This document shows positions 5,603-27,610 of a stretch of DNA of 32,000 bases, one piece after another. The notes below the pieces were generated by a model. The model worked only from the letters and a program-made list of their open reading frames with translations, made no database searches and had not been told where the DNA came from. The translations under genes and the position numbers were made by a program. Location of the stretch: NCBI RefSeq assembly GCF_000007185.1, contig NC_003551.1:1410001-1442000 (forward strand), written 5' to 3'. How positions within the stretch are numbered: the stretch's first letter is position 1; each line of letters starts with the position of its first letter. Source of the stretch: Methanopyrus kandleri AV19. Lineage in GTDB: Archaea > JAADCQ01 > Methanopyri > Methanopyrales > Methanopyraceae.

Positions 5603-5689
5603 GGGCTCGCCCCCGGAAGTTCTCCTCATCGGCGCGGCCCTCGGGAGAGGGCGCGGATGGTCACGGCCCGGCCGGTCCGGCTGCGGTCC

Positions 5690-5696: not shown

Positions 5697-5733
5697 AACG
5701 GTGTCCCCTGTCCGCGATGGGGGGTCGCGAAGG

Positions 5734-9104: not shown

Positions 9105-9108
9105 CTGT

Positions 9109-9185
9109 GCCCCGCGGTTAGCCAGGCCGGTCATCCGTCGCCTTCCGGTCGTCACCCGTCCCGGCCCCAGCCTGGACCGCGGGGC
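9109..9185. other. 77-nt GC-rich extended stem structure in a convergent intergenic region
   Basis: GCCCCGCGG (9109-9117) pairs perfectly with CCGCGGGGC (9177-9185). An inner helix CCAGGC/GCCTGG follows. The structure begins 5 nt after the stop at 9104. Confidence 0.4.
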
Positions 9186-9287
9186 TCATCGGCGGCCCCT
9201 ACTCCCCCTCATCGGGAGTCACCCTCAGGTTTTCGGGGCCGTCCTCTCGTGGGTGATCGCCGGGCATCCGGGAGTTAACCCTTTCGA

Positions 9288-12007: not shown

Positions 12008-12717
12008 CTCTCGCCCCCCTTCCACGCCTTCAGGATGTCCTCGCCGGTCAGGAACGGAGCACCACGCTCTCTCGCGACGCGCTCGGCTTCTTCACGTGGG
12101 AGCGCTCCTCCACCCGGCTCCAGCATCTCGCATATGACCGCTACCTTTGGCTCCAAGCCGACGAGTTCGAGTAACGTCGCGGTGAGCTCGGTGTGTCCCC
12201 GGCGTTCCTCCAGCAGTCCGTCGAAGGGGCGCAGCAGGTGCACGTGCCCCGGCGATCTGAACTCCTCACCGAACTCACGTACGGGATCTTCATGGTTGCG
12301 GGTGAAGAACTCCGCCAGTTTCCGTACAGTTAAGGCACGATCCTCGTCGGTGACCCCGGTGAAGGTGTCTCGGTGGTTCACGGTGATCGAGAACGTGGAG
12401 CGCTCGTCGTACGGTATATCGTCGGGCCACGTGGCGCGCAGTAGGGGATGATCGGCACGTTCGTAGACGTCTACCAGGAAGGGTAAGCGTATCTCCCGGG
12501 CATGCTCCGGATGTATTACCACGCAGATCAATCCACCCGCGGTCCTCCGGAGTTCCGCGACGTGATCCGGCGTGACTTCAGGTGCCCAAAACACCATATC
12601 GGTTTCACCTTCACGATCCTCTGAATCGAAAATGAACACGGGTTCTCCACGTCTCAACGCCCGCCGGACGGTCCGCAGGTCAACCTCCTCGCTAGCTTCC
12701 AAGTCGACGGTCCCCAC
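12004..12717 (-). CDS. ribB: 3,4-dihydroxy-2-butanone-4-phosphate synthase
   Basis: Archaeal RibB motifs are present: FDSEDREGETDMVF, AGGLICVVIHP, DIPYDERSTFSITVNHRDTFTGVTDEDRA, FRSPGHVHLL, RRGHTELT, ICEML. With the GTG start at 12717, it overlaps the ribK 3' end by 64 nt. Confidence 0.9.
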   Translation of the reverse strand: MGTVDLEASEEVDLRTVRRALRRGEPVFIFDSEDREGETDMVFWAPEVTPDHVAELRRTAGGLICVVIHPEHAREIRLPFLVDVYERADHPLLRATWPDDIPYDERSTFSITVNHRDTFTGVTDEDRALTVRKLAEFFTRNHEDPVREFGEEFRSPGHVHLLRPFDGLLEERRGHTELTATLLELVGLEPKVAVICEMLEPGGGALPREEAERVARERGAPFLTGEDILKAWKGGER

Positions 12718-13079
12718 ACCTCGATCTTTACCATATCGCCATGGATTACGTTGAGCTCACGTCGTAACTCCGTCTCGGATATCAGCTCCACCTGATCCCG
12801 GTGCTCCGTGAGGTCCGGAAAGACCAGCCACGCGGGCCTTCCGTTCACCAAGCAAGGATAAAGCCAAGCTCCTCCGTACTCGCCGTGAGGCTCTATTCGG
12901 TACCCGTATGAAGACGCGAGCTCACGGAGCGATTCACGCTCCTCGCGCTCTACACGGACGTTGAACGTCCCCGGGAACGGTCGCGCCCCGATCACACGTT
13001 CGATTTCCCTCCGGTAATAAGGAATACTGACGTAGCGACGGCCTTCACCCAGTCCCTCCACATATTCACCTACGGCCAC
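12654..13079 (-). CDS. ribK: CTP-dependent (archaeal) riboflavin kinase
   Basis: The sequence follows the MJ0056-family pattern: VEGLGEGRRYVSIPYY, PFPGTFNVRVE, then a beta-rich C-terminal part. The start is GTG at 13079 (best N-terminal length match) or GTG at 13097. Either overlaps the RIO kinase 3' end. Confidence 0.8.
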   Translation of the reverse strand: MAVGEYVEGLGEGRRYVSIPYYRREIERVIGARPFPGTFNVRVEREERESLRELASSYGYRIEPHGEYGGAWLYPCLVNGRPAWLVFPDLTEHRDQVELISETELRRELNVIHGDMVKIEVWGPSTWKLARRLTCGPSGGR

Positions 13080-16971: not shown

Positions 16972-18236
16972 ACTCCCACACCCCGGCGGTCCAGCTCGCT
17001 CAGGGTGGGCCGGTTCTCGGCCACGAGGTACGCCACCGGGAGCTCGAAGTACTCGGGGCCCATGAGCAGCTTCAGCAGCTGCTCCAGGTTCTTCACGACT
17101 GGCGCGAACGTCAGGATCGGCCGCCCGCGACGCGGACTCTTCACTACCACCCACTCCCTGATCCCGGCTTCCTCCGACCTCTCGATCAGCTCGTTCAGCA
17201 GCGACAGGTTCTTCTTGGCGTCGAGGTAGTCGGCCCTGCACTCCCTCTCGACGAGCTCTCGGAGTTCCTCTATCCAGTCCTCGAGCTCGTACGTCAACCG
17301 GTCGTAGACCTCTCGGAACTTGGTCTTCTCCTCCAGCGCCTTCTTCACCTTCCGGACGTCGCGGTTCCAGTCCACGACACTCCACATGTGAGACTGGTCC
17401 AGGGCCAGGTCCTTCAACTCATCCATCAGCGTGCGTGAGCCGACTCTCACGTACCCCCTGATCTCCACTATGAGCGCTCCAGGGAGCACGTGGGCGTCGT
17501 CCAGGACCACGAGCGAGCCCTCCAGCGCTTCTTCCCAGTCCTCTTCAGACACGAACGGTTCCTTACCCAACGCCTCACGTGCACAACGGTGCGACGCGTA
17601 CAGGAACGGGGCCGACAGCAGCTTCTTGAAGGAGAGACAGACGATCCTGGCCGGCTCACGTAACTGACGGATGATCTCGCAGTTCCCACAGGAGTCCCAG
17701 GGAGCGAACCCCTTGATGAACGGGTTCTCCCTGTACAGGGCCCTGCGGACCTTCTCCCGTAGCTCCTCGTCCTCCAGCGGTTTCAGCAGCGGACCCTCTT
17801 TCCGGTAAAACCACGGGTAACACTTCGGTTCGTCCTGCGCCGAGCCCGCGTGTGCCATGACCTCGAAGAGCTCCTCCTGTTCCAACTCTCCGAGGAGCTC
17901 CGGCAGCTTAACCTGACACGGTTCGTCGTAATCCTCCACCCTGCGCCACAGATCGACGCTGAGCTCCCACTCCTTGAACTTCTTGTACTCCCGCTCCGCT
18001 AGGTCCGGTGACGGGACGGAGTAGAACACCCTTTCCCGGTACTCCCTGGCTATCCTCCGCAATAACCAGGTTTTACCCGACCCGGGCCGCGTGGTGAGCA
18101 CGGCCACGCTGTCGCACTCGGCCAGCTGATCGCGGATTTCTTCCAACATCTCGTACTGCGACTTCCTCAGGTCGTACTTCTCCTCGACGGCGTCCAGAGC
18201 TTCGAACAGGACTTCCTTGTCTTCCCCGCAGCTCAA
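16968..18236 (-). CDS. XPD/Rad3-like helicase domain 1 protein (Walker A, Cys-rich insert, DDAH box, helical arch-like region)
   Basis: The TTG start at 18236 overlaps the GTPase stop (TTGA). Features in order: YDLRKSQYEML…; Walker A TTRPGSGKTW; RVFYSVPSPDL; Cys residues at EPCQ, KCYPW and DSCGNC; IVCLSFKKLL; Walker B/DEAH-like VVLDDAHVL; and a coiled-coil-rich 170-aa tail. No helicase domain 2 is present in this ORF. Confidence 0.55.
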   Translation of the reverse strand: MSCGEDKEVLFEALDAVEEKYDLRKSQYEMLEEIRDQLAECDSVAVLTTRPGSGKTWLLRRIAREYRERVFYSVPSPDLAEREYKKFKEWELSVDLWRRVEDYDEPCQVKLPELLGELEQEELFEVMAHAGSAQDEPKCYPWFYRKEGPLLKPLEDEELREKVRRALYRENPFIKGFAPWDSCGNCEIIRQLREPARIVCLSFKKLLSAPFLYASHRCAREALGKEPFVSEEDWEEALEGSLVVLDDAHVLPGALIVEIRGYVRVGSRTLMDELKDLALDQSHMWSVVDWNRDVRKVKKALEEKTKFREVYDRLTYELEDWIEELRELVERECRADYLDAKKNLSLLNELIERSEEAGIREWVVVKSPRRGRPILTFAPVVKNLEQLLKLLMGPEYFELPVAYLVAENRPTLSELDRRGVGV

Positions 18237-19285
18237 CGCGCCACCCCCTCGACGACACCGAGCACCGCCGGCTCGTTGCCCACGGTCACCAGGAACCGGT
18301 CGCCGGGCTCCACCACCACCTCACGGTCCAGCTCCAGGACGACGTGCGCCACGTTGTGGCCCTCGGCGTAGGGTCGCAGCACTTCCGTCCCGGCGTCCGT
18401 CTCGACCTCCGCGAACCTGACATTCGCGGCCGCGGAGAGCACGTGCACCTTCCCCATCGTCCCGGGCCGGACCTTAGCGCCGATCGAGAGAACTTCCGCC
18501 TCGATCCGGTCGGCGGTCGACAACCCCTCCCCGAGGCACATCCCGCGCGTGATCGAGCCCTTCACCCTCAGCCTGGCCCGGAACGGAACCCCCGGCCCGG
18601 ATCCGTCCGTCGATTCCACCTCCAACACCTCCGCGCTCCGTCCACCCGGCTGGACTTCGACCCGCCCTTCCTCCAGCGTACCCCGATCCACGATCCCGAA
18701 CACGTCCACGGTCGTCTCGTCCACCCTCCTCGTGGACTCCACCGGCGCCCGCAGCGGGTCCATCTCGGACGGTCGAGGTGGCTCCTCCAGCTCGGCCAGC
18801 GCGTCGAGCAGCTCTTCCGCCCCTTCCCCCGTCTTCGCGGACACCGGAACGGGTTCCACGACGGCTTCCACACCGAGCAGCTCCAGAAGATCCATCACCT
18901 CATCCGCGACCTCGGCCGCCCGATCGCGGCTTACCAGGTCCACCTTGCTCACGACGGGTAGTACTCTCGCCCCGTAGAACGAGACCACGAGCGCGTGGTC
19001 GATCGTTCCTGGACACGGTCCCTCGTCGGCCGCGACCACCAGGATCGCGTAATCCGCGCTCCAGGCGGACGCCAGCATGTTGCGGATGTAGTCACGATGA
19101 CCCGGTACGTCCACGAACGAGACCGTGGTATCGCCGAGCTCCAGGAACGCGCGTGCGGGCTCTATCGTGACCCCCATCTCCCGCTCGTGGGGTAGCCTGT
19201 CCAACCACTCACCGGTCAGCGCCTTCACGAGCGTGGTCTTTCCGTGGTTGAAATGTCCGCAGACTACCACGTTGACGACACTCAC
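18233..19285 (-). CDS. EF-Tu/SelB-family translational-type GTPase lacking a domain IV (SelB-like)
   Basis: G motifs are present: G1 GHFNHGKTT, G2 REMGVTIEP, G3 DVPGH, G4 SKVD, G5 SAKTGEG. They are followed by two beta-barrel-like domains. The preferred start is GTG at 19285 (MSVVNVVVCGH…), 5 nt after GGAGGGTG. The ORF is open up to GTG 19309. Confidence 0.75.
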   Translation of the reverse strand: MSVVNVVVCGHFNHGKTTLVKALTGEWLDRLPHEREMGVTIEPARAFLELGDTTVSFVDVPGHRDYIRNMLASAWSADYAILVVAADEGPCPGTIDHALVVSFYGARVLPVVSKVDLVSRDRAAEVADEVMDLLELLGVEAVVEPVPVSAKTGEGAEELLDALAELEEPPRPSEMDPLRAPVESTRRVDETTVDVFGIVDRGTLEEGRVEVQPGGRSAEVLEVESTDGSGPGVPFRARLRVKGSITRGMCLGEGLSTADRIEAEVLSIGAKVRPGTMGKVHVLSAAANVRFAEVETDAGTEVLRPYAEGHNVAHVVLELDREVVVEPGDRFLVTVGNEPAVLGVVEGVAR

Positions 19286-19346
19286 GCCGCCACCCTCCAG
19301 TCGCTCCACTCGCCCTTGAGCCTCCGGGCGGTTAATCCCGCGAATC

Positions 19347-19361
19347 GCCTTTTATTTACCA
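19347..19361 (-). promoter_or_regulatory. TATA-like box (GGTAAATAAAAGGCG on the minus strand) overlapping the CobN-like stop codon
   Basis: This is the only AT-rich patch in the 46-70 nt between the CobN-like stop (19356) and the GTPase start. The spacing would place the TSS at ~19326. Confidence 0.4.
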
Positions 19362-22300
19362 CCCCCGAGGGCCCGGCTCGTAGCGCCGCGCCCACCACAC
19401 GGCCAGAAAGCAGCCCGTGAGCAACGCCAGGACCAGCAACCACCTCGGGAAGTAGGAGACCGGGGCCGCCCGGTACTCCTGCGCCAGCACCCGTCCGGTC
19501 CTCGCGGCGGTCGACCCGGCATCCTTCTCTGCACCTCCGGTGACCTTGCCCGCGACACCTATCAAAGACACTCCCGTAGGTTTCGCCGACCTCGGGCCGA
19601 CCACCGCTCCCGTTACCGCCGCGACATGCGATACTGTGACCGTGATCCGGGCGACCGCCGGGACCCTCGGCGCCACACGGACGGTCGGTCCGAACGTCGG
19701 ACGCGCCGTCGGAACGGTTGGAGGTACCGCGGTGGCCGTTTCGATCGCCTCCGTCGCCATCCGTTCGACGACCTGAGTCTGGAAGGCGCATAGTTCGGGG
19801 CAGCAGCAGGCTACGGAGGTGATCCAGGATAACACCTCGCGCGGGTAGGGGACGCCCAGGTCGGTCGAGATCCTGGCGAGCGAGAACGCGGCCGAGGCCA
19901 GGGCCGTCGGCACCGACGCCAACCAGTCCGCGTTAGCGCCTACCGCCGACCAGACGGCCGGGAGCACGGCCGCGAGGTCGCGCCGTCCGATCGCGACGTA
20001 CCCGAGGGTCGCGAAGCGCTTGAGCGAGCGCAGCAAGTACAACGCGCCCGAGACCCCGAACCGGCGGAGCCCGGCGATGAAGCTCCTGTTGTACAACGTC
20101 CTAAGCAGGCTCCGCACGAGGTACGCCCGGGTCGAGACCAACGGGCCCGAACCGCGCTCGATCTCCCGTAGCGTCTCCTTCAGGCCGCTCGCCGCGCGGA
20201 GGAGAGTCTCCTTCCACCCGACGAGCCTCGCGAGCCGACCGGCGCTTTTGGCCACGTTCCAGCCCGGTTTGAAGGCGCCGAGATCAACCTTCGAGACGTC
20301 GAGCGTCCATCCCCTGATGGAATTCTCCCGCAGTAGGTAGTCTAGGAGTGCCCTCGCCGACGCCTCGAGGTCCACGGTGCAGCCGCAGCAGAAGAGGTTC
20401 GAGTAGTCGTCGTACGAGTCGAACACCTGTAGGACCGCGTCCGAGGTGACGACCGCCAGGGCCAGTGCGAGCGGGCAGTGTAAGAACGGTTGCCGCGTCC
20501 CCACGAGCTCCGACCGCACGTACGGGAGGACCGTGTACGAGAACCCGACGAGCGCCCGGAGCCCCAGGGACTCCACGCTGTCGCCCGTGTACATGCCGGC
20601 CTCGATCATTGGGAGTACCGGCGCGATGAACTCGCCCGGACACTGCGTGAAGACCGCGACGCCCGCCATCACCGCGACGTTCTCCCGCGTCAGCCCCCCG
20701 AGGAGCCAGTCGGGGAGCCTCTCTTCCAACGCCTCCCGGAGGACCAGATACGTGACGGCCCAATGGAGAAACGGGGCGTTCCGGGACGGCGGAATCCACA
20801 GGCCGGTACCGACGGCCACCGACCACAGGAGCTCCGCCAGGTTCCACCCGACCAGGTCTCGAAGACCCACGACGACGTAGTCGTTCAGTTCCTTCAGTCC
20901 CTCGTGCAGCTCACGGAGCGTCCCCAGCGGGTCACGCTCCAGCCTCGTCAGAGCGTCGTCGAGGAGCCTCCGGAGGACTCCCGGAACGCACCCTTGATCC
21001 CGGAGTCTCTCCTCCGCCTCCTTCAACGACCTCTTGAGCGCCTCGAGCACGTCCCTGAGGGCGTCCCACCGACCCGTACCGTGAGGCCTCGCGGTCGGTG
21101 AGAGGTACGAGCGCTCGCCCAGTGCCAGGGCGATCCAAGGCTCCGCCGCGACCACATCCAGCATACGACACACGTTGATCAGCGAGAGCGCGGACGGGCT
21201 GATCCCCTGGAACGTAGCCCCCGACACCAGCAAGAGGACGTCTTTACGGACCCTGGGCAGGTCGAGCACCTCGACCCCCACGATCCGGACCGTCCGGAGG
21301 TCGAACGTCAACTCGCCCACGACGACTACCCTCTCCCCGACGCGCAGGTTCACCGGGTACCGGAACGCGACCGTGATGCTCGCGCTCGGGTCGTACTCGG
21401 ACCGGAGGACTACGGTGTGATCGTCCAGGATCCGCGCCACGATCCCGCTCACGCACGCGCTCGTACCTCCGCACACAGTGGGCATGGCGACGAGGTCGGC
21501 CACGTCCACGACGTCCTCCTCACTGTACGATATCACGAGGTCCGAGCACAACAGGCGCACGTTCTCGGCTTCGAAGTCAGGAATTCCGAGCACGACGAGC
21601 TCTTGACCGACGCTCACCCGGGTCCCTTCCGGGAGTACTACCTCCACGTGGGCCGTCCCGTCGTCCACGACGACCGTGGGCCTATTACCGAGGTACCGGA
21701 CCTCCGTGATCCGACCGCGGATCAGGAGGGTCTGGACTGGCACGTTCGGGTGTCGGACGTGCACGAGCGGCAGCTCCCAGGGAAGGACACCGATCACCTC
21801 GCCGGTGAGGTTCGTTCCGTACGAGGCCCGACCGGTCGTCGTGGGAACGTAGCTCCGGAAGGAAGTCTTCACCGGCACGTACCCGAGCAGTTCCAGTGCC
21901 AGCGCGTACTGGAGGCCGCCCGTGGCCAGGTCGGTCGGACCCATCACCGTCATCACGCGGTCTTCCGCGTGCCGGTACAGCTCGGTCGCGATCACCGACG
22001 ACACGGACACGGCGACCTCGTCCGGGAACCTCCGCACGTCGTAGGCGCAGGTGTTCCTCCCGGTCGGGGCGACGTAGACGTACCGGAGCGGGGAGCCACC
22101 GAACCCCGGGCGCACGTACTCCGCGCGCAGCGCCCTGAGGAGGTTCTCGATCTCGTACCGGGCGCTGAGCAGGAACCGCTCGAGCACCTCGCGGGCCAGG
22201 CGCGAGATCCGGTCACCCTGTCTCCCCGTCCATACGGCCTCCCAGTCGACGTCCACCTCCTCCCACAGCGCCCGTCGTAGTGCGAACTCGACCATGCACT

Positions 22301-25184
22301 CGAGTGACTTAAACGGGTCCTCGGGGTCGATCGAGGGCAGACCGTACACGTGTAATCCGCACATCCCCGACTCCTCCTCGACCTCCCGTAAGTACTCGTA
22401 CAACAGCTCCGCACACCGGTCGAAGTTCCGCTCGAACTTCTCCCATTCGTCGGTCACCACCAGGTACACGCCGGTCTCGCGGACGAGCTCGAGGATCGCG
22501 TCTCGGAGTGCGGGGGATCGTGACTGGAGGTACTTCTCAAGCGCCTCGATCAATCGCTCTACCTCAGGATCGAACTGGACCTCGTTCCTGGGCGCTGGGA
22601 AGTGACCGAGGACGATCGCGCCGAGCCGACGCCTGGCCGTGACGCAACCGGTCGGATCCCCCACGTGGTACAGGCAGACTATCGGCGTCCCGTTCGCCAG
22701 GACGATCGGAAACTCCCAGCCGAGGGGGAGGATGGGTTTCATGGGCGTCCACTCGAGTCGACCCCTACCACCTACGCGGACCACCGCGTCCGCGTCGAAC
22801 TTCCGCGTGAGGTAGTACCAGAACGCCAGATAGAGATGCGTGGGTGGGAGGACACTCGCCCGGAGCTCGGTCTCGGATTTCATCCGCAACAGGGGCGGTT
22901 CCGGGAGTACGATAACGTTTCCGAATTTCATTCCCGGTATCGGGAACGCGCGAGTCCCGTCCACGGTCCTCAGGAACGGGGACTCCTCGGGCGGACCCCA
23001 CCCGAAGAGTCCACCCAACTCGTCCAACCGACCCCTCCACTCCTCCCACAACCCGTCCAACTCGCGCAGGACGGGCTCCTTATCCACCCGCTCGCCCCGG
23101 GACACCCGCACCAACAGGTCCGTCACCCTCGCGAAGACCTCCCGTAACTTCCTCACCAGGGCCTCCCGGGTCGCGTCGTCGAGGTTCATCAGGTGTAAGC
23201 ACGAGATCACGGTATCCATCAGTGCCTCCATCCTTACCCGGAGGAACTCGAGGTAGCGTTTGTCGGGAGGTAATTCTTCGGGGTTGGCCCGCTCGACGAG
23301 GTATCGGAGGTACCCGAGTATCCCCCGTTCTACGTACAATCGCGTGGGTTCGGGGAGGGAGCGGTACCACTCGAGGTACTCGTCGAGGGTGACCTTGTCG
23401 AGGAGTAGCAACTCGACCTCGTGCGCCCGACCACCCGCCCGCTCGACGAACCGGTTCAAACCAGTCTTGAGCGGTGGCGTTCTCACGTACGGACCCACGT
23501 GATAGGCCCTGAACAGGTATTCGCGCCAGAACCGGTCCGAAAGCTCAAGCAGTACGTTCAGGGCCTCGCGGAAGATCTCAATCGCCTGCCGGAAATTACC
23601 TCGCTCGAGAAGTTCCCACGCCTCTCGGTCCAACTCGATGACCCGGCGCAGCACCTCGTCCCACGGTGTGTGGACCGAGTACCCGTCCTCGCGCAACCAA
23701 GCCAGAAGGTGTAACACGCTCGCGGGCACGTCCAGCTGGTCCGCCACCGCCACGAAGTCCCGGCCGGACGTGTCGACCCCGTACACGAGGGCCACTCTCT
23801 TCTCACGGTTCGGAGCCTCCCGCAACCGGCGCAGCTTCTCGACCAGGCGGACGACGGCATCGATCGTCTCCTCGATCGGTTTGCCTCTGACCACCAGGAC
23901 GCCACCGGGGACGTGTCGGGCGAGCCCCGGTGGTAGCCTGACGACGCGCGACGTCCCGACGAGGAACAGACCTAGGAAGCCGAGGTTCTCGGGTGCGATC
24001 ACGTTGAACACCATGTAATGGTCGGCGGCGCGTTCGGACATGTACAGGCATTCCCACTGCAACCTCGTCATGCCCATGTGGTTGCTGTCCAGCCCGATCA
24101 CCGGGACGTTCAACCGTTCGAACAGTCTCACGAGCCGGCTGTCGGGGCCATAGTACCGCATCATGCTGTGGTTGACGGCCCACATGATGCAGACGGTGTG
24201 TTCCTCTTTGACCAGCGGTTCCAAGGCCCCGAGGAAGTCTTCGGGCAGCATGTACAGAGCGTCGTAGTGCAGGGCGATGGGTACCACGTTGTACCCGCGC
24301 TCGTGGAGCTTCTCCGCCAGCACGCGCAGCCAATCGAGGTAGCCGAGGTACCGACCCAGGAGGTTGGATGAGTCGAAGACGATGAACACCGTCGGGGCTC
24401 CAGGGGTGTAGAAACCTCTCGACTCACCCAGTCTCCGGTAGCGGTCGAAGATCTCGCGGAGCCTGGGAAGGACCTCGCCGCGGATAAGCTCCACGAACCA
24501 CCGCGGGTACACGGTGATCCCGTGGTAGCTGGACAGTACCTCGCCGTGTGGGAACTCGCGCTGGTACCTCAGGATCACGATCGGGTCGACGGGACGATCG
24601 TAGGAGACCACGGTATCGGTGAGCGGGTCGTACAGGGATAGCAGACCGTCGAGGTAGAATGCCCGGGGCGGCTCTCCACCACCTACGTACCTGAAGAACT
24701 GGACGAGGTTACGCTCGGAGAGCGTGGTTAGGAATAGATAGAGGGGAACCTCGGCACCTCCGACGTTCATCACCCGATCCGCCAGTGGTACCATCTCGGC
24801 CTTGGTCGAACCGGTCGGGATGTTGATGCCGTTCTGATACACGTAGAAGGGGACACCGCGCGACAGAGCCTCGGCGAGAGCCGCGTACTCCGGCGCCGAG
24901 TACGGGTCCAGCGAGGTCAGTCCCGACGAGCGATACAGCACCACGGCCGAGGCATTCCGGATGCGCTCGCAGGTCTCCTTCCTCACCTCCTCGAGGTTCG
25001 CACCGACGATGAGGGAGTCGTACGAACGCGAGTCGATGACGAAGAAGTCCACCCCGGACTTCGATAACGGTTCGATGAACTGGCCGGCGTAACGGGATAT
25101 CACCACTATCTCACCGCAGGAAACCGGTGCGAACGACGTCAAGGCTGGGAGTAATAATGAGAGAACTAGAAGGGGACGTGGCAC
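19356..25184 (-). CDS. giant secreted, C-terminally membrane-anchored CobN/Mg-chelatase-H-family protein with an inserted tandem OB-fold-like module
   Basis: 1942 aa with a GTG start after GAGGGGG. The signal peptide is MPRPLLVLSLLLPALTSFAPVSCG. CobN-like blocks include LDVPASVLHLLAWLREDGYSV, LRAEYVRPGFGGSPLRYVYVAPTGRNTCAYD and PRVRKDVLLLVSGATFQG. A ~160-aa insert is encoded at ~21255-21737. The C-terminus has a T/A/V/P linker and a TM anchor, WLLVLALLTGCFLAVWWARR. Confidence 0.75.
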   Translation of the reverse strand: MPRPLLVLSLLLPALTSFAPVSCGEIVVISRYAGQFIEPLSKSGVDFFVIDSRSYDSLIVGANLEEVRKETCERIRNASAVVLYRSSGLTSLDPYSAPEYAALAEALSRGVPFYVYQNGINIPTGSTKAEMVPLADRVMNVGGAEVPLYLFLTTLSERNLVQFFRYVGGGEPPRAFYLDGLLSLYDPLTDTVVSYDRPVDPIVILRYQREFPHGEVLSSYHGITVYPRWFVELIRGEVLPRLREIFDRYRRLGESRGFYTPGAPTVFIVFDSSNLLGRYLGYLDWLRVLAEKLHERGYNVVPIALHYDALYMLPEDFLGALEPLVKEEHTVCIMWAVNHSMMRYYGPDSRLVRLFERLNVPVIGLDSNHMGMTRLQWECLYMSERAADHYMVFNVIAPENLGFLGLFLVGTSRVVRLPPGLARHVPGGVLVVRGKPIEETIDAVVRLVEKLRRLREAPNREKRVALVYGVDTSGRDFVAVADQLDVPASVLHLLAWLREDGYSVHTPWDEVLRRVIELDREAWELLERGNFRQAIEIFREALNVLLELSDRFWREYLFRAYHVGPYVRTPPLKTGLNRFVERAGGRAHEVELLLLDKVTLDEYLEWYRSLPEPTRLYVERGILGYLRYLVERANPEELPPDKRYLEFLRVRMEALMDTVISCLHLMNLDDATREALVRKLREVFARVTDLLVRVSRGERVDKEPVLRELDGLWEEWRGRLDELGGLFGWGPPEESPFLRTVDGTRAFPIPGMKFGNVIVLPEPPLLRMKSETELRASVLPPTHLYLAFWYYLTRKFDADAVVRVGGRGRLEWTPMKPILPLGWEFPIVLANGTPIVCLYHVGDPTGCVTARRRLGAIVLGHFPAPRNEVQFDPEVERLIEALEKYLQSRSPALRDAILELVRETGVYLVVTDEWEKFERNFDRCAELLYEYLREVEEESGMCGLHVYGLPSIDPEDPFKSLECMVEFALRRALWEEVDVDWEAVWTGRQGDRISRLAREVLERFLLSARYEIENLLRALRAEYVRPGFGGSPLRYVYVAPTGRNTCAYDVRRFPDEVAVSVSSVIATELYRHAEDRVMTVMGPTDLATGGLQYALALELLGYVPVKTSFRSYVPTTTGRASYGTNLTGEVIGVLPWELPLVHVRHPNVPVQTLLIRGRITEVRYLGNRPTVVVDDGTAHVEVVLPEGTRVSVGQELVVLGIPDFEAENVRLLCSDLVISYSEEDVVDVADLVAMPTVCGGTSACVSGIVARILDDHTVVLRSEYDPSASITVAFRYPVNLRVGERVVVVGELTFDLRTVRIVGVEVLDLPRVRKDVLLLVSGATFQGISPSALSLINVCRMLDVVAAEPWIALALGERSYLSPTARPHGTGRWDALRDVLEALKRSLKEAEERLRDQGCVPGVLRRLLDDALTRLERDPLGTLRELHEGLKELNDYVVVGLRDLVGWNLAELLWSVAVGTGLWIPPSRNAPFLHWAVTYLVLREALEERLPDWLLGGLTRENVAVMAGVAVFTQCPGEFIAPVLPMIEAGMYTGDSVESLGLRALVGFSYTVLPYVRSELVGTRQPFLHCPLALALAVVTSDAVLQVFDSYDDYSNLFCCGCTVDLEASARALLDYLLRENSIRGWTLDVSKVDLGAFKPGWNVAKSAGRLARLVGWKETLLRAASGLKETLREIERGSGPLVSTRAYLVRSLLRTLYNRSFIAGLRRFGVSGALYLLRSLKRFATLGYVAIGRRDLAAVLPAVWSAVGANADWLASVPTALASAAFSLARISTDLGVPYPREVLSWITSVACCCPELCAFQTQVVERMATEAIETATAVPPTVPTARPTFGPTVRVAPRVPAVARITVTVSHVAAVTGAVVGPRSAKPTGVSLIGVAGKVTGGAEKDAGSTAARTGRVLAQEYRAAPVSYFPRWLLVLALLTGCFLAVWWARRYEPGPRGW

Positions 25185-25197
25185 CGGAGGAACCCCC

Positions 25198-26574
25198 TCA
25201 GCGGCGTCGGGTCAGGAGCGACGCCGCGAGCGCCAGTGCCACGACTGCCGGAGTCACCGGGAAGATCTTCCGCTTCTTCACTACGCCCTTGCCGACGCCC
25301 AGCTTCTCGGCCAGCGCGAAAGCCGCCAGCGCGTACGAGGTCGCCAGTGTCTGGCTCCGGTAGCGCAGCTCCGGGCTCCAGACGCTCCGGATGAAGTACC
25401 AGTAGAACGGTAGCCTCAGGCGTTTGGCCTCCAGGTACTGACCGTGCAGTACCTCCAGCGCCTTCACGATCGCCTCATGGTTCGGGTCGATGAGACCCAA
25501 CTTCGCGCACCTGAGCAGCGCGACCAGCGCGGAGGCCGTGCTACCGTAGTCCGGCGGGTACTCGCTCAGCGATCCGCGGCCCCACATGCCCGTCTCCGGG
25601 TCCCGGAGCGAGAGCAGGTAGTCGATCGCTTTCTTGAGCGCGTTCTTCACGCGCTCGACCAGGTCCTTCAGCTCGTCCTCCTTGCCCGCCCGCTGCACGG
25701 CCTCGAGCCAGTCGCAGAGGGCGATCATGGCACGACAGTGTCCGGTCGTGTACAGCGGGTACGGACAACCCGTGTCCCGCGGGTCGGTGTAGAAGTTGCC
25801 CTTCTCGTCCTGGTTGTTCAGGAACCACTCAACGACCTTCAGGATCAGCTCGTCGTCCGGAGACGTTCCGGCCGCCAGCAGCATCCGGAGGCAGTACGAG
25901 GTCACGTCCGTGATACCGTGAGCACCACCCGGACGGTCCGGGTAGTCGATCCAGCAGTAGCCCTTGTCCTCCTTCTGCAGGTTCGGACCCTCACGGAGCC
26001 AGTTGATCACCTTCTCGAGGAACGGCTTGTACTCGTTCCACTTGTCGTCCGGGACGATGCCCGCCTGTCTAGCTCGGAAAAACGGCAGCGCGAACTTTGC
26101 CGTCAGCCCGGCGCTCGGGATCTCCTTACCGTCCTTGATCCTGGCCCAATAAGCCCACTCTCCGTTGGGGTCCTCCTTACGCTGGTACTTACCCTTCACG
26201 TTCCACATGTACTGGAGCGCCTTCAGGACCATGTCCTTGTCGACGGGGTACCCTACCTCGACCGCCGTCAGCAGGGTGTCCATGACCACGTATGTGTGCA
26301 GGTTCGGCAGGCAGTAGTACGTAACGTCCGACTTGTACGACATCGGGAACGCGCCGACGTCCTCCGGCTTTACCTCGTAGGTCGCCTTTTGTCCACTGCG
26401 GTCCTTGTACTCGATCACCTTGCCCACGTCCTCCTCGGTGTACTGCTGCGACTTCAGCCAGTCGTGGGCGGCCCTGGCGCACTCCTGGATCTGCTCGGCC
26501 GTGATGGCAGATCCCGGGGCGGTCGAGAGGGCCACGGTGACAAGGGCGAGTACTAACGGTCTGAGAATTCCCAT
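25198..26574 (-). CDS. secreted alpha/alpha-toroid (prenyltransferase / squalene-cyclase-type repeat) protein with a C-terminal TM anchor
   Basis: 458 aa, with the ATG at 26574. The signal peptide is MGILRPLVLALVTVALSTAPGSA. Repeated toroid-type motifs are present (WLKSQQ…, WLREGPNLQKEDKGYCW, FLNNQDEKGNFY, LLSLRDPETGMWGRG). The C-terminus is IFPVTPAVVALALAASLLTRRR. The gene ends 13 nt before the CobN-like start. Confidence 0.65.
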   Translation of the reverse strand: MGILRPLVLALVTVALSTAPGSAITAEQIQECARAAHDWLKSQQYTEEDVGKVIEYKDRSGQKATYEVKPEDVGAFPMSYKSDVTYYCLPNLHTYVVMDTLLTAVEVGYPVDKDMVLKALQYMWNVKGKYQRKEDPNGEWAYWARIKDGKEIPSAGLTAKFALPFFRARQAGIVPDDKWNEYKPFLEKVINWLREGPNLQKEDKGYCWIDYPDRPGGAHGITDVTSYCLRMLLAAGTSPDDELILKVVEWFLNNQDEKGNFYTDPRDTGCPYPLYTTGHCRAMIALCDWLEAVQRAGKEDELKDLVERVKNALKKAIDYLLSLRDPETGMWGRGSLSEYPPDYGSTASALVALLRCAKLGLIDPNHEAIVKALEVLHGQYLEAKRLRLPFYWYFIRSVWSPELRYRSQTLATSYALAAFALAEKLGVGKGVVKKRKIFPVTPAVVALALAASLLTRRR

Positions 26575-26600
26575 GTAGTATTACCCTCACTCGCTCCCAT

Positions 26601-26624
26601 GTTATTACCAAATAAATTTTATCG
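26601..26624 (-). promoter_or_regulatory. TATA-like box (CGATAAAATTTATTTGGTAATAAC on the minus strand) for the toroid/CobN-like unit
   Basis: This AT-rich patch sits in a 52-bp gap ~35-45 nt upstream of ATG 26574. A GAGGGT SD-like sequence lies between them. Confidence 0.55.
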
Positions 26625-26626
26625 AC

Positions 26627-27610
26627 TTATGTCCTATCTCGTACTAATCTCCATATGATACCCGCTGTCATAAGTAATAGTAATATCGCCGCGGAAACAG
26701 CGCCGAGACTCGGATGGCAGGACGCCTCGAAGATACCGGTAGAGACGACCGGCACCCCGATGGTATCCGCGGCGTACCCGGCCGCGACCGCGCAGAGGGT
26801 GATTCCGACCAAGTAAGCCGCGACGATCCTTCCTCCCAGGAACCGTAGGATAACGGATAGCGTGGCTACGTTGGTCCCGGGTCCGGCCACGGTGAACGTC
26901 AGCATCGAACCTACGGAGGCTCCTTTCGCCACCAGTGCGGCGGCTATGGGGATCGCGGCGACCGAACACACGTAGAGCGGTAGACTTATCAGAGCGGCGA
27001 GGACGGGCCCGAGGAAACCTTCGAGGTATCGTACCGCCGGACTCGGCACCCATAGCTCCAGTAGGACGGAGGCCGCCAATCCTATCAGAAGCCACGGCCC
27101 TACGGTGCCCGATAGCTCCAGAAGCTCACGTGGGAAGTCCTTGAAGGAACGTCCCCGATAGCACGGTCCGTGTTCTCCGCACGATGGGAGTTCTTCCGTC
27201 TCCTCGCTTCGATCCTTCAGAGTGAGCTCGGCCAGATAACCGACTATCACGGCCGCGACTACCGCGGTCAGCACCTTGGCCGCCGTGAAGTACGGTCCGA
27301 GCAGCGCGTAGGCCAGCAGTAGGGAGTTCACGTCGGTTTGCGGGGTAGCCACGATGAAGGCGATGACGGGGCCTACACCGGCCCCACGGTTCTTGGCTGC
27401 TATCGCGAGCGGGAGCACCGAACACGAGCAGAGGGGGAGTGGAACTCCGAGGAGCGTCGCGATTATGCAAGCCTTGAGGCCACCACGCAGATGACGGGCG
27501 AGGTAGCGTTCGGGGACCATCGATTGCAGTGCGGCCCCTAACACGAGACCGATGAGTAGGTACGGAGAAATCTCCGTCAAAAGGCCCACGAACGCTCCGA
27601 GAGGATCCAA
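26627..27610 (-). CDS. DUF318/ArsP-type permease (two-repeat, Cys-motif metal/metalloid permease family)
   Basis: 327 aa with a TTG start and about 8 TM helices. It carries the hallmark LPLCSCSVLPL motif, a second-repeat equivalent PLYVCSVAAIPI, and an acidic Cys-containing central loop. Confidence 0.65.
   Translation of the reverse strand: MDPLGAFVGLLTEISPYLLIGLVLGAALQSMVPERYLARHLRGGLKACIIATLLGVPLPLCSCSVLPLAIAAKNRGAGVGPVIAFIVATPQTDVNSLLLAYALLGPYFTAAKVLTAVVAAVIVGYLAELTLKDRSEETEELPSCGEHGPCYRGRSFKDFPRELLELSGTVGPWLLIGLAASVLLELWVPSPAVRYLEGFLGPVLAALISLPLYVCSVAAIPIAAALVAKGASVGSMLTFTVAGPGTNVATLSVILRFLGGRIVAAYLVGITLCAVAAGYAADTIGVPVVSTGIFEASCHPSLGAVSAAILLLLMTAGIIWRLVRDRT

What the first reader, a model, noticed from the sequence alone, without database searches (positions are those of the whole stretch)
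19356..26624. Exported CobN-family giant protein with an inserted OB-fold-like pair, paired with an exported alpha/alpha-toroid repeat protein
CobN and Mg-chelatase H subunits are cytoplasmic and work with AAA+ partners (CobS/T, ChlI/D) that use ATP. Here the 1942-aa CobN-like protein has a clear N-terminal signal peptide and a C-terminal linker plus TM anchor. No CobS/T-type gene is adjacent. A ~160-aa insert (~21255-21737) sits exactly between the conserved blocks corresponding to …LLG..PV… and …RPRIDV…SG.F. The insert reads as two tandem OB-like barrels (RGRITEVRYLGNRPTVVVDDGTAHVEVVLPEG… and SGIVARILDDHTVVLRS…VGERVVVVGEL). The gene 13 nt upstream encodes a signal-peptide-bearing toroid protein built from prenyltransferase/terpene-cyclase-type repeats and carrying the same kind of anchor. 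That fold also forms the corrinoid-binding alpha domain of transcobalamin-type proteins, and CobN-like proteins act as de-chelatases in some bacterial haem/corrinoid salvage loci (HmuS type). A cell-surface tetrapyrrole or metal capture or remodelling module is therefore a plausible but untested reading.
Basis: partly seen in the sequence, partly recalled or inferred. Interest (0 to 1): 0.7.

Follow-up and report, generated by a model that had tools for sequence, protein, structure and literature searches.

The report
Surface-anchored CobN-like and toroid protein pair
A heat-loving methanogen (Methanopyrus kandleri) encodes, side by side, a giant relative of the metal-inserting enzyme CobN and a ring-shaped helical partner protein. 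Both look as if they are exported and tethered to the cell surface, but this CobN copy has lost the histidines that its relatives need for catalysis, so it more likely binds something than transforms it.

Summary
Window 19356-25184(-) encodes a 1942-aa CobN-superfamily protein (PF02514, E=1.3e-85). It has an N-terminal signal-like segment, a Thr/Pro/Val/Ala-rich stalk and a C-terminal TM anchor.

Thirteen nt upstream, 25198-26574(-) encodes a 458-aa protein with the same topology. It is modelled with confidence as an (alpha/alpha)6 toroid.

The 32-kb window holds no ChlI/ChlD/CobS/CobT gene.

The insert is real (aa 1108-1293) and made of two homologous beta units. "OB-like" is only weakly supported.

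New points:
- The toroid plus giant CobN-like pair is a conserved module. It occurs in 6 of 6 testable Methanopyri loci, as two paralogous pairs in M. kandleri, and nowhere else that I could find.
- The window's paralog replaces both histidines of the superfamily-invariant HxGxHG motif with arginine (R803, R807). The sister paralog keeps the essential His.
- Exported, membrane-anchored, ATP-independent CobN homologues are already known in bacteria (HmuS/BtuS).

Best reading: a Methanopyri-specific surface module built on the HmuS-like plan, in which the window's copy probably binds a ligand rather than catalyses. The ligand, whether tetrapyrrole or metal, is untested.

Verdict: new variant of a known kind, moderately interesting.

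The parts
26575..26640 (-). AT-rich promoter-like spacer upstream of the toroid gene. It holds a TATA-like AAAATTTATTT and the octamer ATAAGTCG (26623-26630). The upper end of this range (26627-26640) overlaps the 3' end of the ArsP-like permease gene (26627-27610).
   Evidence: Sequence read. WTAAGTCG occurs once in the 32 kb. It also lies about 40-55 nt upstream of the toroid start in L002, L011 and L013. Function is inferred, not shown.
25198..26574 (-). Toroid gene: 458-aa exported (alpha/alpha)6-toroid protein of the prenyltransferase/squalene-cyclase repeat superfamily (AAM02619.1 / WP_011019774.1).
26506..26574 (-). Toroid signal-peptide-like N-terminus, MGILRPLVLALVTVALSTAPGSA (aa 1-23).
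   Evidence: Hydropathy peak 1.83. The sequence varies but stays hydrophobic in orthologues and paralogues. Coordinates verified.
25201..25269 (-). Toroid C-terminal anchor, KIFPVTPAVVALALAASLLTRRR (aa 436-458).
   Evidence: Hydropathy peak 2.04. The motif PxxPxV + hydrophobic stretch + RRR is shared with the paralogous toroids P0072 and P0065. NCBIfam gives only weak MYXO-CTERM-type matches.
19356..25184 (-). Giant CobN-superfamily gene (1942 aa, GTG start, GGGGGT Shine-Dalgarno-like element 7 nt upstream). GenBank calls it cobaltochelatase subunit CobN.
25116..25184 (-). CobN-like signal-peptide-like N-terminus, (M)PRPLLVLSLLLPALTSFAPVSC (aa 1-23), followed by the conserved mature start GEIVVISRY.
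21864..24443 (-). Recognisable class I chelatase core, aa 248-1107, aligned to family-profile positions 180-896 of 1223. I read this as roughly the neck, domains III-IV and the start of domain V, but the domain labels were not mapped here.
   Evidence: E=3.6e-78.
23004..23522 (-). Insertion 1, aa ~555-727, relative to canonical CobN. Shared with the MK2-type paralogue.
   Evidence: Gap in the profile alignment; paralogue alignment. No secondary-structure prediction was run on it.
22737..22784 (-). Degenerate active-site motif VVRVGGRGRLEWTPMK (aa 801-816). Canonical form is vvH.G.HG.lEw.PGK. R803 and R807 replace HmuS His-534 and His-538. Glu-811 is kept.
   Evidence: Ungapped alignments to solved HmuS 9d26, CobN 9uk9 and 7c6o, and ChlH 6yt0/4zhj. 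Conserved as Arg in all MK1-type orthologues. Role of the His residues from PMC12583661.
21306..21863 (-). Insertion 2, aa 1108-1293, between LLGYVPVK and the RPRIDV-equivalent RVRKDV. It consists of a Thr/Gly-rich loop plus two beta units.
21534..21734 (-). Beta unit 1, aa 1151-1217 (QTLLIRGRITEV...LLCSDLV), OB/TOBE-like.
   Evidence: Pfam tRNA_anti-codon E=1e-4 and TOBE_2 E=0.1, both below threshold. Five strands at pLDDT 66-75. Local Foldseek matches to TOBE/Mop/OB domains.
21264..21461 (-). Beta unit 2, aa 1242-1307 (SACVSGIVARIL...RIVGVEVL). Its last strands take the place of the canonical hairpin before RPRIDV.
   Evidence: Homologous to unit 1: hhalign probability 95.7%, E=9.5e-9, 60 columns..
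19785..21185 (-). Highly divergent remainder of domains V and VI, aa 1334-1800. It matches the CobN profile only through the MK2-type paralogue.
   Evidence: No direct profile match. It is co-linear with MK2. MK2 in turn matches profile positions 979-1082 (E=7.7e-12) and 1110-1186 (E=8.6e-8).
20379..20390 (-). CCGC cluster, aa 1599-1602. Cys-1602 is invariant in both paralogue types. By my register, counted back from the conserved GG and not tested structurally, it occupies the position of HmuS His-1209 and the CobN Asp of DSDDYYQFEGG.
   Evidence: Motif definition from PMC12583661. The residue correspondence is an inference from sequence alignment.
19788..19808 (-). CCCPELC motif, aa 1793-1799, just before the stalk. 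It is invariant in both paralogue types. Cys-rich motifs lie near the same place in other exported CobN-like proteins (P0009 SCCDCSC, HmuS-like P0047 CTEFVC).
19461..19757 (-). Low-complexity Thr/Pro/Val/Ala-rich stalk, aa 1810-1908. It varies in length and carries indels among orthologues.
19383..19451 (-). C-terminal TM anchor FPRWLLVLALLTGCFLAVWWARR (aa 1912-1934), followed by a short basic tail ending ...PRGW.
   Evidence: Hydropathy peak 1.78. PRW...L and the terminal GW are invariant across both paralogue types.

Best explanation
This is one of two paralogous two-gene surface modules found only in class Methanopyri. Each module encodes an exported, C-terminally anchored (alpha/alpha)6-toroid protein. 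Directly downstream it encodes an exported giant CobN-superfamily protein that carries a tandem beta-barrel insert, a Cys-rich juxtamembrane motif, a stalk and a TM anchor.

Like bacterial HmuS/BtuS, the CobN-like body sits outside the cytoplasm, where no ATP or AAA+ motor is available.

The window's copy (MK1-type) keeps the chelatase fold. It has exchanged both histidines of the invariant HxGxHG motif for arginine and has lost the HGY and FEGG motifs that its sister paralogue (MK2-type) retains. I therefore read it as a non-catalytic, or chemically re-purposed, ligand-binding subunit. It would hold an anionic macrocycle or metal species in the old active-site cleft, with the toroid as its obligatory co-receptor. 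Any (de)metalation chemistry is more likely carried out by the MK2-type pair.

Shown: the homology, the predicted topology features, the conserved gene pairing, the motif loss and the insert anatomy.

Inferred: export itself, a physical complex between the two proteins, the nature of the ligand, and the division of labour between the paralogues.
For: Family membership.

Topology: hydrophobic segments only at the termini, with positive tails after the C-terminal helices. The signal segments are variable but always present, ahead of a conserved mature N-terminus, in the complete relatives.

Pairing: a toroid gene lies immediately upstream on the same strand in the window, L001, L002, L011, L013 and L014. 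The gaps are 13, 74 and 4 nt in the window, L001 and L002. The two CobN-like paralogue types are only 28-34% identical, depending on the alignment, yet co-linear end to end.

Controls: ordinary CobN genes of Methanothrix and others have no toroid neighbour. The three distant toroid relatives whose loci I checked have no CobN neighbour.

No AAA+ partner: none in the window, L001 or L002.

Motif loss: R803 and R807 align without gaps to the His pair of solved HmuS, CobN and ChlH. They are Arg in all MK1-type sequences, whereas MK2-type has NTGKHG. His-538 is essential in HmuS (PMC12583661).

The gene is not decaying: orthologues are 83-90% identical, and a distant one is 69% identical, with the motif changes fixed.

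Precedent for exported, ATP-independent CobN homologues.

Precedent for a methanogen CobN homologue responding to metal supply: M. marburgensis CobN1 rises about 300-fold under nickel limitation (PMC12350162).
Against: - No ligand, complex or localisation has been shown.
- Export rests on sequence features only; no dedicated predictor or proteomics was used.
- Arg-for-His does not prove inactivity. An invariant Cys (C1602, in a CCGC cluster) sits where HmuS has its second axial His, so different chemistry is possible.
- The toroid's nearest structural neighbours are glycoside hydrolases and terpene cyclases, not tetrapyrrole binders.
- The C-terminal ~470 aa match CobN only through the paralogue.
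- The Ni-limitation precedent concerns a different, 143-kDa CobN homologue whose relationship to this subfamily I could not test.
- The NikR-like inverted repeat lies upstream of MK2-type pairs in two MAG loci only, not in this window.
Confidence: 0.4

Rival explanations
1. This copy is an active extracytoplasmic de-chelatase or chelatase of the HmuS type. The protein would strip or insert a metal (Fe, Ni or Co) in an environmental tetrapyrrole at the cell surface, using residues other than the canonical His pair. The toroid would deliver the substrate.
For: The architecture matches HmuS/BtuS: N-terminal hydrophobic segment, CobN body, Cys motif, C-terminal anchor and no AAA+ partner. Glu-811, PTGRN and much of the core are retained. 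An invariant Cys-1602 lies at the position of HmuS His-1209. The sister paralogue keeps the essential His.
Against: His-534 and His-538 equivalents are Arg in every MK1-type sequence. H538A abolishes HmuS turnover. HGY and FEGG are also lost. The HmuS-defining Met-rich insertion and the hmuT/U/V neighbours are absent.
Confidence: 0.15
2. The module has an envelope-structural or glycan/lipid-directed role unrelated to tetrapyrroles. The chelatase fold would serve only as a large scaffold (a pseudoenzyme). The toroid would bind or process pseudomurein, S-layer glycan or isoprenoid components between the membrane and the wall.
For: The best fold matches of the toroid are GH105/GH88 unsaturated glycuronyl hydrolases, epimerases and terpene cyclases. 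Catalytic motifs of the CobN part are degenerate. Stalk plus anchor is typical of archaeal surface proteins. The family is restricted to one class with an unusual envelope.
Against: The MK2-type paralogue keeps the essential His, HGY and FEGG motifs, which argues that the ancestral module handled a chelatase-type ligand. The toroid has no DxDD motif. Glycosidase catalytic residues were not examined, and no glycan-related genes are adjacent.
Confidence: 0.2
3. The module captures a free metal or oxyanion directly. The Cys clusters (CCGC, CCCPxxC) and the TOBE/Mop-like barrels would bind a thiophilic metal (Ni, Co, Zn, Cu) or tungstate/molybdate at the surface and pass it to a transporter.
For: Both Cys motifs are invariant. 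The best local structural matches of the insert include tungstate- and molybdate-binding Mop/TOBE domains, and Pfam gives a weak TOBE_2 hit. An ArsP/SO_0444-type Cu/Zn-efflux-family permease gene lies 52 nt upstream. Methanothermobacter CobN1 is induced by Ni limitation.
Against: The insert model is low-confidence and no fold match is significant. The permease neighbour is not conserved in the orthologous locus L011. This reading gives no reason for keeping a 1,000-aa chelatase body.
Confidence: 0.1
4. The protein is the ordinary cytoplasmic cobaltochelatase subunit CobN of cobalamin biosynthesis, as the database annotation says.
For: NCBI names it so and PF02514 matches.
Against: All CobN and BchH equivalog models score 78-164 bits against cut-offs of 822-1926. 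The protein has a signal-like N-terminus and a TM anchor. The catalytic His pair is lost. No ChlI/D or CobS/T gene is nearby. Methanogens are reported to use the anaerobic route with CbiX (PMC3087415).
Confidence: 0.02

Closest known systems
HmuS / BtuS1 / BtuS2 of Bacteroidota (heme de-chelatase; PDB 9D26; PMC12583661, PMC6460266)
   Same: All are CobN-superfamily bodies held at the outer face of the cytoplasmic membrane by hydrophobic segments at both termini, with no AAA+ partner and no ATP requirement. A Cys-containing motif precedes the C-terminal anchor. The window protein hits the 9D26 chain by phmmer.
   Different: The window protein is archaeal. HmuS His-534/His-538 are Arg here, and His-1209 is Cys by my alignment. 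There is no Met-rich insertion in domain IV and no hmuY/R/T/U/V neighbours. Two other insertions are present (aa ~555-727 and the tandem barrels at 1108-1293), along with a long stalk and an obligatory toroid partner gene.
Class I chelatase large subunits CobN and ChlH/BchH (PDB 9UK9, 7C6O, 4ZHJ)
   Same: The core is homologous over about 860 residues, including FGNV, E-W-P-K, AKRR-like and PTGRN elements.
   Different: Those proteins are cytoplasmic, work with AAA+ ChlI/ChlD or CobS/CobT and carry the His pair. This one is 600-700 aa longer, looks exported and anchored, lacks the His pair and has no AAA+ neighbour.
MK2-type paralogue pair of M. kandleri (toroid AAM01352.1 / WP_011018507.1 plus a 2042-aa CobN-like protein; locus L001)
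   Same: Identical gene order and domain plan: signal segment, both insertions, CCCP motif, stalk, and an anchor ending ...RGW. The toroid carries the same kind of anchor.
   Different: The two are only 28-34% identical. MK2-type keeps NTGKHG, HGY and FEGG. Its toroid carries an extra Ig-like domain. In two MAG lineages its promoter holds an ATTAC-N14-GTAAT inverted repeat.
Exported CobN-like protein of an Actinomycetota MAG (P0009, MDI6892793.1), followed by genes with DUF2162, MotA_ExbB and DUF2149 domains
   Same: Signal peptide, an insertion in the same region as insertion 1, a Cys-rich motif (SCCDCSC), a Pro/Ser-rich linker and a C-terminal anchor. It gave the longest coverage (44%) among hits outside Methanopyrus.
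   Different: It keeps the His pair (HIGRHA) and has no tandem-barrel insert and no toroid neighbour. It is followed by a MotA/ExbB-type channel gene.
Methanothermobacter marburgensis CobN1 (D9PVN3)
   Same: It is a methanogen CobN homologue outside the established cobalamin route. The authors list it among possible metal-chelating proteins.
   Different: It is 143 kDa. It is induced about 300-fold by Ni limitation, whereas nothing is known about expression of the Methanopyrus genes.
Squalene-hopene cyclase / prenyltransferase / GH105-GH88 (alpha/alpha)6 toroids; transcobalamin alpha-domain
   Same: The toroid protein has the fold (TM about 0.5 to many members), four to five L..Q..G.W-type repeats and weak Pfam SQHop_cyclase_C similarity. 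Its only distant sequence relatives are SHC-like proteins.
   Different: It is a single toroid with a signal peptide and a TM anchor and has no DxDD motif. It scores below the Pfam gathering threshold and is restricted to Methanopyri. No specific resemblance to transcobalamin was seen.

Membership tests
CobN/Mg-chelatase H superfamily (PF02514) | Significant match to the family profile above the curated threshold | tested here: met
   288.6 bits against a cut-off of 24.5, E=1.3e-85. Own family profile gives E=3.6e-78.
CobN/Mg-chelatase H superfamily (PF02514) | Superfamily-invariant HxG(T/A/K)HG motif, i.e. the HmuS His-538 equivalent | tested here: not met
   The motif reads RVGGRG, with R803 and R807, in ungapped alignment to solved HmuS, CobN and ChlH. 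The same holds in all MK1-type orthologues.
Cobaltochelatase CobN (functional equivalog) | Score above the NCBIfam equivalog cut-off | tested here: not met
   Best score is 164 bits against a cut-off of 822 (TIGR02257). All nine CobN and BchH models fall far below their cut-offs.
Cobaltochelatase CobN / Mg-chelatase ChlH | AAA+ partner genes (CobS/CobT or ChlI/ChlD) in the same locus | tested here: not met
   None among the ORFs scanned across the 32-kb window or around the paralogous pairs. Presence elsewhere in the genome was not testable.
Cobaltochelatase CobN / Mg-chelatase ChlH | Cytoplasmic location | tested here: not met
   Signal-like N-terminus and C-terminal TM anchor with a basic tail. 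This is a prediction from sequence only.
HmuS heme de-chelatase family | [quoted passage not shown] | tested here: met
   HmuS description.
HmuS heme de-chelatase family | His-538 and His-1209/Glu-1212 (HFG[T/A]HG and LSLDHxxEFMGG motifs) | tested here: not met
   R807 replaces His-538. The second motif reads FCCGCTVDLEAS, with Cys at the His-1209 position by alignment through the paralogue.
HmuS heme de-chelatase family | Methionine-rich insertion in domain IV | tested here: not met
   The whole 1942-aa protein has only 27 Met, and no Met-rich stretch is visible in the sequence. The feature is defined.
HmuS heme de-chelatase family | Heme ligands Met-79 and His-254 at the head/neck interface | not tested
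   The N-terminal 247 aa do not align reliably to the family profile, and no structure model of this part was made.
HmuS heme de-chelatase family | Membership of an hmuYRSTUV operon | tested here: not met
   The neighbours are the toroid gene, an ArsP-like permease and a SelB-like GTPase. No MotA_ExbB, DUF2162 or DUF2149 hit appears in the window.
HmuS heme de-chelatase family | NADH-dependent conversion of heme to protoporphyrin IX | not testable with these tools
   Biochemical assay required.
Prenyltransferase / squalene-cyclase (alpha/alpha)6 toroid superfamily (the partner protein) | (alpha/alpha)6 barrel fold | tested here: met
   AlphaFold pTM 0.82. Forty-one Foldseek PDB hits at E<=1e-3, all toroids.
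Prenyltransferase / squalene-cyclase (alpha/alpha)6 toroid superfamily (the partner protein) | Pfam family match above the gathering score | tested here: not met
   SQHop_cyclase_C scores 23.3 bits against 26.1.
Class II terpene cyclase | Catalytic DxDD motif | tested here: not met
   No D.DD anywhere in the protein.
OB fold (insert units) | Five-stranded closed beta-barrel with OB topology | tested here: inconclusive
   All-beta model with 5 + 4 strands but mean pLDDT 46.8. No significant fold hit; the best local hits are TOBE/Mop/OB domains. Pfam OB match is below threshold.

The most novel reading that the evidence does not exclude
Methanopyri may carry a cell-surface metal-harvesting machine with no close described counterpart. 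It would consist of two paralogous toroid + CobN-like pairs. One pair retains chelatase-type chemistry (MK2-type, with a His/Cys site). The other is a non-catalytic receptor (MK1-type, the window's copy). Together they would capture environmental metallo-tetrapyrroles such as F430 or cobamides, or nickel or cobalt itself, and release the metal outside the cell without ATP. The tandem barrels and the juxtamembrane CCCPxxC motif would relay it towards a transporter. This would give a first function to the many orphan CobN homologues of methanogens.
Probability: 0.15. Interest if true: 0.8.

Novelty: new variant of a known kind. Interest (0 to 1): 0.55.

Why it matters
Methanogens carry many CobN homologues that are not linked to cob genes. 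The 2025 HmuS study says explicitly that their function is unclear. In Methanothermobacter, one such protein becomes highly abundant only under nickel limitation.

The Methanopyrus module offers a sharply defined, testable case:
- a conserved two-gene unit with a predicted extracellular location;
- a natural pair of paralogues, one with and one without the essential histidine;
- two lineage-specific additions, the toroid partner and the tandem-barrel insert.

If it proves to bind or demetalate tetrapyrroles or nickel, the HmuS principle (class I chelatase fold working outside the cell without an AAA+ motor) would extend to archaea and to other metals. If it does not, it would be an example of a chelatase fold recruited as a surface pseudoenzyme.

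It also shows that the database name "cobaltochelatase subunit CobN" is very probably wrong for this gene.

Tried and rejected
1. Global MAFFT alignment of the query with 11 CobN/ChlH/HmuS-like proteins. It misaligned everything after the insert, so I replaced it with profile searches.
2. Sequence search of the toroid against the PDB, as a single sequence and as a profile. Only noise came back.
3. Word-indexed homologue searches:
   - with the full protein, which missed the 28-34%-identical paralogue in the same genome, so it says little about distribution;
   - with the toroid;
   - with the C-terminal 516 aa, which returned only Methanopyrus sequences.
4. Structure of the insert from a 4-sequence alignment. 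Confidence was too low for a firm fold assignment, and Foldseek gave no significant hit.
5. NCBIfam scan of the C-terminal tails for archaeosortase-type sorting signals. Only sub-threshold MYXO-CTERM-type matches appeared.
6. Contexts of three distant SHC-like relatives of the toroid. They sit in ordinary isoprenoid or redox neighbourhoods with no CobN gene, so the pairing is not a general property of toroid proteins.
7. A NikR-like operator upstream of the window's toroid gene. None was found. The inverted repeat exists only upstream of MK2-type pairs in L002 and L013.
8. The ArsP-like permease as a conserved partner. It is absent from the orthologous locus L011.
9. Rfam and tRNA scans of the window found nothing.
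11. dN/dS was considered and dropped, because the only orthologous DNA available (69-74% aa identity) would be saturated at synonymous sites.

Full report
**Source and genes.** The window is from Methanopyrus kandleri. The large ORF is 100% identical to a protein on a 1,694,969-bp contig that NCBI names "cobaltochelatase subunit CobN [Methanopyrus kandleri]". The finding covers two co-directional genes on the minus strand. The first is 25198..26574 (458 aa, ATG). The second is 19356..25184 (1942 aa, GTG), 13 nt downstream, with a GGGGGT Shine-Dalgarno-like element in the spacer. An AT-rich, TATA-like stretch directly precedes the first gene, so the two look like one transcription unit.

**The large protein belongs to the CobN/ChlH/HmuS superfamily.** PF02514 scores 288.6 bits, E=1.3e-85. 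phmmer finds solved CobN (9UK9, 7C6O), ChlH (4ZHJ and others) and HmuS (9D26). A profile built from 54 family members aligns query aa 248-1107 to positions 180-896 of 1223 at E=3.6e-78.

It is not an ordinary CobN. All nine NCBIfam CobN and BchH equivalog models score 78-164 bits against cut-offs of 822-1926.

**Both proteins look exported and C-terminally anchored.**
- In the large protein, hydropathy finds TM-grade segments only at aa 3-24 and 1909-1934, plus one moderately hydrophobic internal stretch at 1566-1590.
- In the small protein the segments are at aa 1-21 and 436-456.
- Both C-terminal helices are followed by basic tails (ARRYEPGPRGW; TRRR).
- The N-terminal segments are the least conserved parts in sequence. 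They are nevertheless always present, in frame, directly before a conserved mature start: FAPVSC|GEIVVISRY in the window, PTHA|GEIVIISRY in L011, SPVHA|GKLVIITGY in the paralogue. That pattern is expected of a cleaved signal peptide.
- A variable, indel-bearing stalk rich in Thr, Pro, Val and Ala separates the body from the anchor.
- I had no dedicated signal-peptide predictor, so export remains a strong prediction, not a demonstration.

**No AAA+ partner.** Pfam and NCBIfam scans of the other ORFs scanned in the window found no ChlI, ChlD, CobS or CobT gene. The neighbours are an ArsP_1 / SO_0444-family permease upstream and a SelB-like GTPase downstream.

**Anatomy relative to canonical CobN.** The profile alignment shows two large insertions.
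It is shared with the paralogue.
The alignment stops at ...LLGYVPVK (aa 1107) and resumes weakly at aa 1294-1333, where FDLRTVRIVGVEVLD-LPRVRKDVLLLVSGATFQGISP lines up with Wd..grv.glevip.eLgRpRiDVvlriSGlfRD. The insert is therefore aa 1108-1293, window 21306-21863.

Insertion 2 contains two beta-rich units, aa 1151-1217 and 1242-1307.
- The two units are homologous to each other: hhalign on 8-sequence sub-alignments gives probability 95.7%, E=9.5e-9 over 60 columns.
- Evidence for an OB fold is suggestive but weak. Pfam tRNA_anti-codon OB gives E=1e-4 (22.6 bits, cut-off 27) and TOBE_2 gives E=0.1.
- The AlphaFold model is all-beta, with 5 + 4 strands, but has mean pLDDT 46.8.
- Foldseek finds no PDB match at E<=1e-3. 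The best local matches are TOBE/Mop domains (MalK-type ATPase C-termini, tungbindin, ModE) and RPA32/Stn1 OB folds.

[quoted passage not shown] - In ungapped pairwise alignments to solved HmuS (...alihfgthgsleftprk), CobN (...vvhmgkhgnlewlpgk) and ChlH (...vlhfgthgslefmpgk), the window protein reads ...VVRVGGRGRLEWTPMK. This places Arg-803 and Arg-807 at the two His positions; Glu-811 is kept.
- The same substitutions occur in all orthologues, including one only 69% identical.
- Two further family motifs are also degenerate: HGY(K/S)GA has become FGVSGA, and DxxYxFEGG has become CGCTVDLEAS.
- The gene is clearly maintained. Methanopyrus orthologues are 83-90% identical over the full length.

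**The small protein is an (alpha/alpha)6 toroid.**
- Sequence evidence alone is marginal: SQHop_cyclase_C scores 23.3 bits against 26.1, and there is no PDB relative.
- The AlphaFold model is good, with pTM 0.82, mean pLDDT 78.6 and a core above 90.
- Foldseek returns 41 PDB matches at E<=1e-3. They are GH105/GH88 hydrolases, squalene-hopene and class II terpene cyclases, cellobiose 2-epimerases and complement TED domains, at TM about 0.5.
- The protein has four to five L..Q..G.W-type repeats and no DxDD motif.
- No transcobalamin-type protein appears in the top 50.
- An exhaustive HMMER scan of 1.84 billion representatives found just 16 proteins at E<=1e-3. The strong hits are Methanopyrus sequences and the weak ones are SHC-like proteins.

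**The pair is a conserved, duplicated module.** Two of the weaker toroid hits turned out to be decisive.

- P0072 (AAM01352.1, M. kandleri, 667 aa) has a signal peptide, a toroid, an Ig-like domain and the anchor ...PAVSPAVAALSVLALALRRRP. It lies 74 nt upstream of a second giant CobN-like gene of 2042 aa (locus L001).
- P0071 lies 4 nt upstream of a 2089-aa CobN-like gene in another Methanopyri-like genome (L002).
- The 2042-aa paralogue (MK2-type) is co-linear with the window protein (MK1-type) from signal peptide to the terminal ...RGW. Identity is 28% by BLASTP and 34% over MAFFT-aligned columns. It has both insertions, the CCCPxxC motif, the stalk and the anchor.
- MK2-type is less derived. 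It keeps NTGKHGTYEWLP, HGYSGA and FEGG, and its C-terminal part matches the canonical profile at positions 979-1082 (E=7.7e-12) and 1110-1186 (E=8.6e-8). By transitivity this identifies the window protein's otherwise unmatchable aa 1334-1800 as the remainder of domains V and VI.

A scan of species-representative genomes found four more Methanopyri-type loci. In each of the three with upstream sequence, a toroid gene sits immediately upstream on the same strand:
- L011, MK1-type;
- L013, MK2-type, on the same contig as L011;
- L014, MK2-type.

The pairing therefore holds in 6 of 6 loci.

Two controls point the same way. Ordinary-length CobN genes of Methanothrix, Solibacter and others, picked up by the same scan, have no toroid neighbour. 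The three distant SHC-like toroid relatives I checked have no CobN neighbour.

**Comparison with what is known.**
- BtuS1 and BtuS2 of Bacteroides fragilis are predicted to be exported and anchored on the periplasmic side (PMC6460266).
- HmuS of B. thetaiotaomicron is a membrane-bound de-chelatase with predicted N- and C-terminal anchoring helices. Its reaction needs NADH but not ATP (PMC12583661).
- An HmuS-like representative (P0047) and an exported CobN-like protein from an Actinomycetota MAG (P0009) show the same end architecture, including a Cys motif before the anchor.
- P0009 is followed by genes with DUF2162, MotA_ExbB and DUF2149 domains.

The Methanopyrus proteins share the plan but fail the HmuS membership tests: the His pair, the Met-rich insertion and the operon context.

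The same paper notes that archaeal homologues are numerous, are not linked to cob genes and have unclear function. One experimental pointer exists. In Methanothermobacter marburgensis, "CobN1" (D9PVN3) rises from about 7e6 to about 2.5e9 intensity units only under nickel limitation (PMC12350162). I could not determine how CobN1 relates to the Methanopyrus subfamily.

**Regulatory lead, weak.** The octamer WTAAGTCG occurs once in the window, about 50 nt upstream of the toroid start. It occurs at a similar distance upstream of the toroid genes in L002, L011 and L013.
- In the two MK2-type MAG loci it is preceded by an inverted repeat ATTAC-N14-GTAAT. That repeat is found nowhere else in the 22 fetched loci or in the window, against an expectation of 0.01 per 32 kb.
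- Its layout recalls predicted NikR boxes, GTGTTAC-N13/14-GTAACAC (PMC545781).
- It is absent from the window's promoter and from L001. It therefore bears on the paralogue, not on this locus.

**Interpretation.**
- Shown: homology, predicted surface topology, conserved pairing, motif loss and insert anatomy.
- Inferred: the two proteins work together outside the membrane on a ligand inherited from the chelatase ancestry, either an anionic macrocycle or a metal.
- Because the window's copy has Arg in place of both His while the fold and many core residues stay under constraint, I favour a binding or receptor role for it. Any chemistry would then fall to the MK2-type pair (confidence 0.4).
- Rivals, in order:
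  - an envelope or glycan role unrelated to tetrapyrroles (0.2);
  - an active HmuS-like enzyme using other residues, notably the invariant Cys-1602 at the His-1209 position (0.15);
  - direct metal or oxyanion capture by the Cys clusters and TOBE-like barrels (0.1);
  - the annotated cytoplasmic cobaltochelatase (0.02).

**Verdict.** The finding is real and richer than described, but it is a lineage-restricted variant of a now-known theme rather than a new category. The functional claim remains open.

Noticed in passing
window 18233-19309 (-), true start probably GTG at ~19285: A 350-358-aa SelB/EF-Tu-like GTPase lies directly downstream of the CobN-like gene (TIGR00475 selB 148 bits, cut-off 242, N-terminal part only). 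A GGAGGGTG Shine-Dalgarno element sits just before the GTG at ~19285. The same GTPase follows the orthologous CobN-like gene in L011 (11003-12115), where the ORFs overlap by about 20 nt. Whether this is linkage or plain synteny is unknown.
   Followed up: partly
window 26627-27610 (-): An ArsP_1 / SO_0444-family (Cu/Zn efflux type) permease with a CSCS motif ends 52 nt upstream of the toroid gene. It is missing at the equivalent place in L011, where 3-dehydroquinate synthase II directly precedes the toroid gene.
   Followed up: yes
window 26623-26630 (-); L002 6695-6702; L011 3508-3515; L013 2973-2980: The octamer WTAAGTCG occurs once per locus, about 40-55 nt upstream of four toroid genes of both paralogue types. 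It may be a shared promoter or TATA element. In L001 the only copy precedes a different gene (TmcA).
   Followed up: partly
L002 6669-6692; L013 2947-2970: The inverted repeat ATTAC-N14-GTAAT lies immediately upstream of the TTAAGTCG element of MK2-type toroid genes in two divergent MAG lineages and nowhere else in the 22 fetched loci or the window. It is similar in layout to predicted NikR boxes (GTGTTAC-N13/14-GTAACAC).
   Followed up: partly
L003 1415-8017 (Actinomycetota MAG, GCA_030019215.1): An exported, anchored 1636-aa CobN-like protein that keeps the His pair is followed by genes with DUF2162, MotA_ExbB and DUF2149 domains. This is a MotA/ExbB-type proton-channel gene next to an exported CobN homologue in a genome binned as Actinomycetota.
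   Followed up: no
L005 5869-14735 (metagenome contig): A 1281-aa CobN (P0058) has CCC at the position of the domain V metal-proximal residue (LLGCCCYFGTQGG). It lies next to a fused ChlI/ChlD-type AAA+/VWA gene, BtuCDF-like transporter genes and archaeal Pilin_N genes. Cys at this position is therefore not unique to Methanopyrus.
   Followed up: no
L011 4896-11022: The MK1-type CobN-like gene of this MAG is split into two overlapping ORFs (4941-8570 and 7321-11022). This is either a frameshift or an assembly error.
   Followed up: no
P0062 (Methanopyrus sp., 340 aa): One toroid orthologue is annotated from what looks like a frameshifted gene. Two stretches of its alignment to the others are out of register, and the C-terminal third is missing.
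   Followed up: no
window 1726-2775 (+): This gene is CfbD, the catalytic subunit of Ni-sirohydrochlorin a,c-diamide reductive cyclase in F430 biosynthesis (TIGR03282, 548.7 bits, cut-off 268). It lies 16.6 kb from the CobN-like gene with many unrelated genes between, so I inferred no linkage. The overlapping 302-aa minus-strand ORF 1404-2312 is probably real only in its DUF211 part.
   Followed up: partly
window 12743-12770 (+): An imperfect inverted repeat, GGATTACG...CGTAACTC, lies 26-53 nt upstream of the start of the 3,4-dihydroxy-2-butanone-4-phosphate synthase gene (12004-12717, -). It turned up as a 3-mismatch hit in the NikR-like search and may be chance.
   Followed up: no
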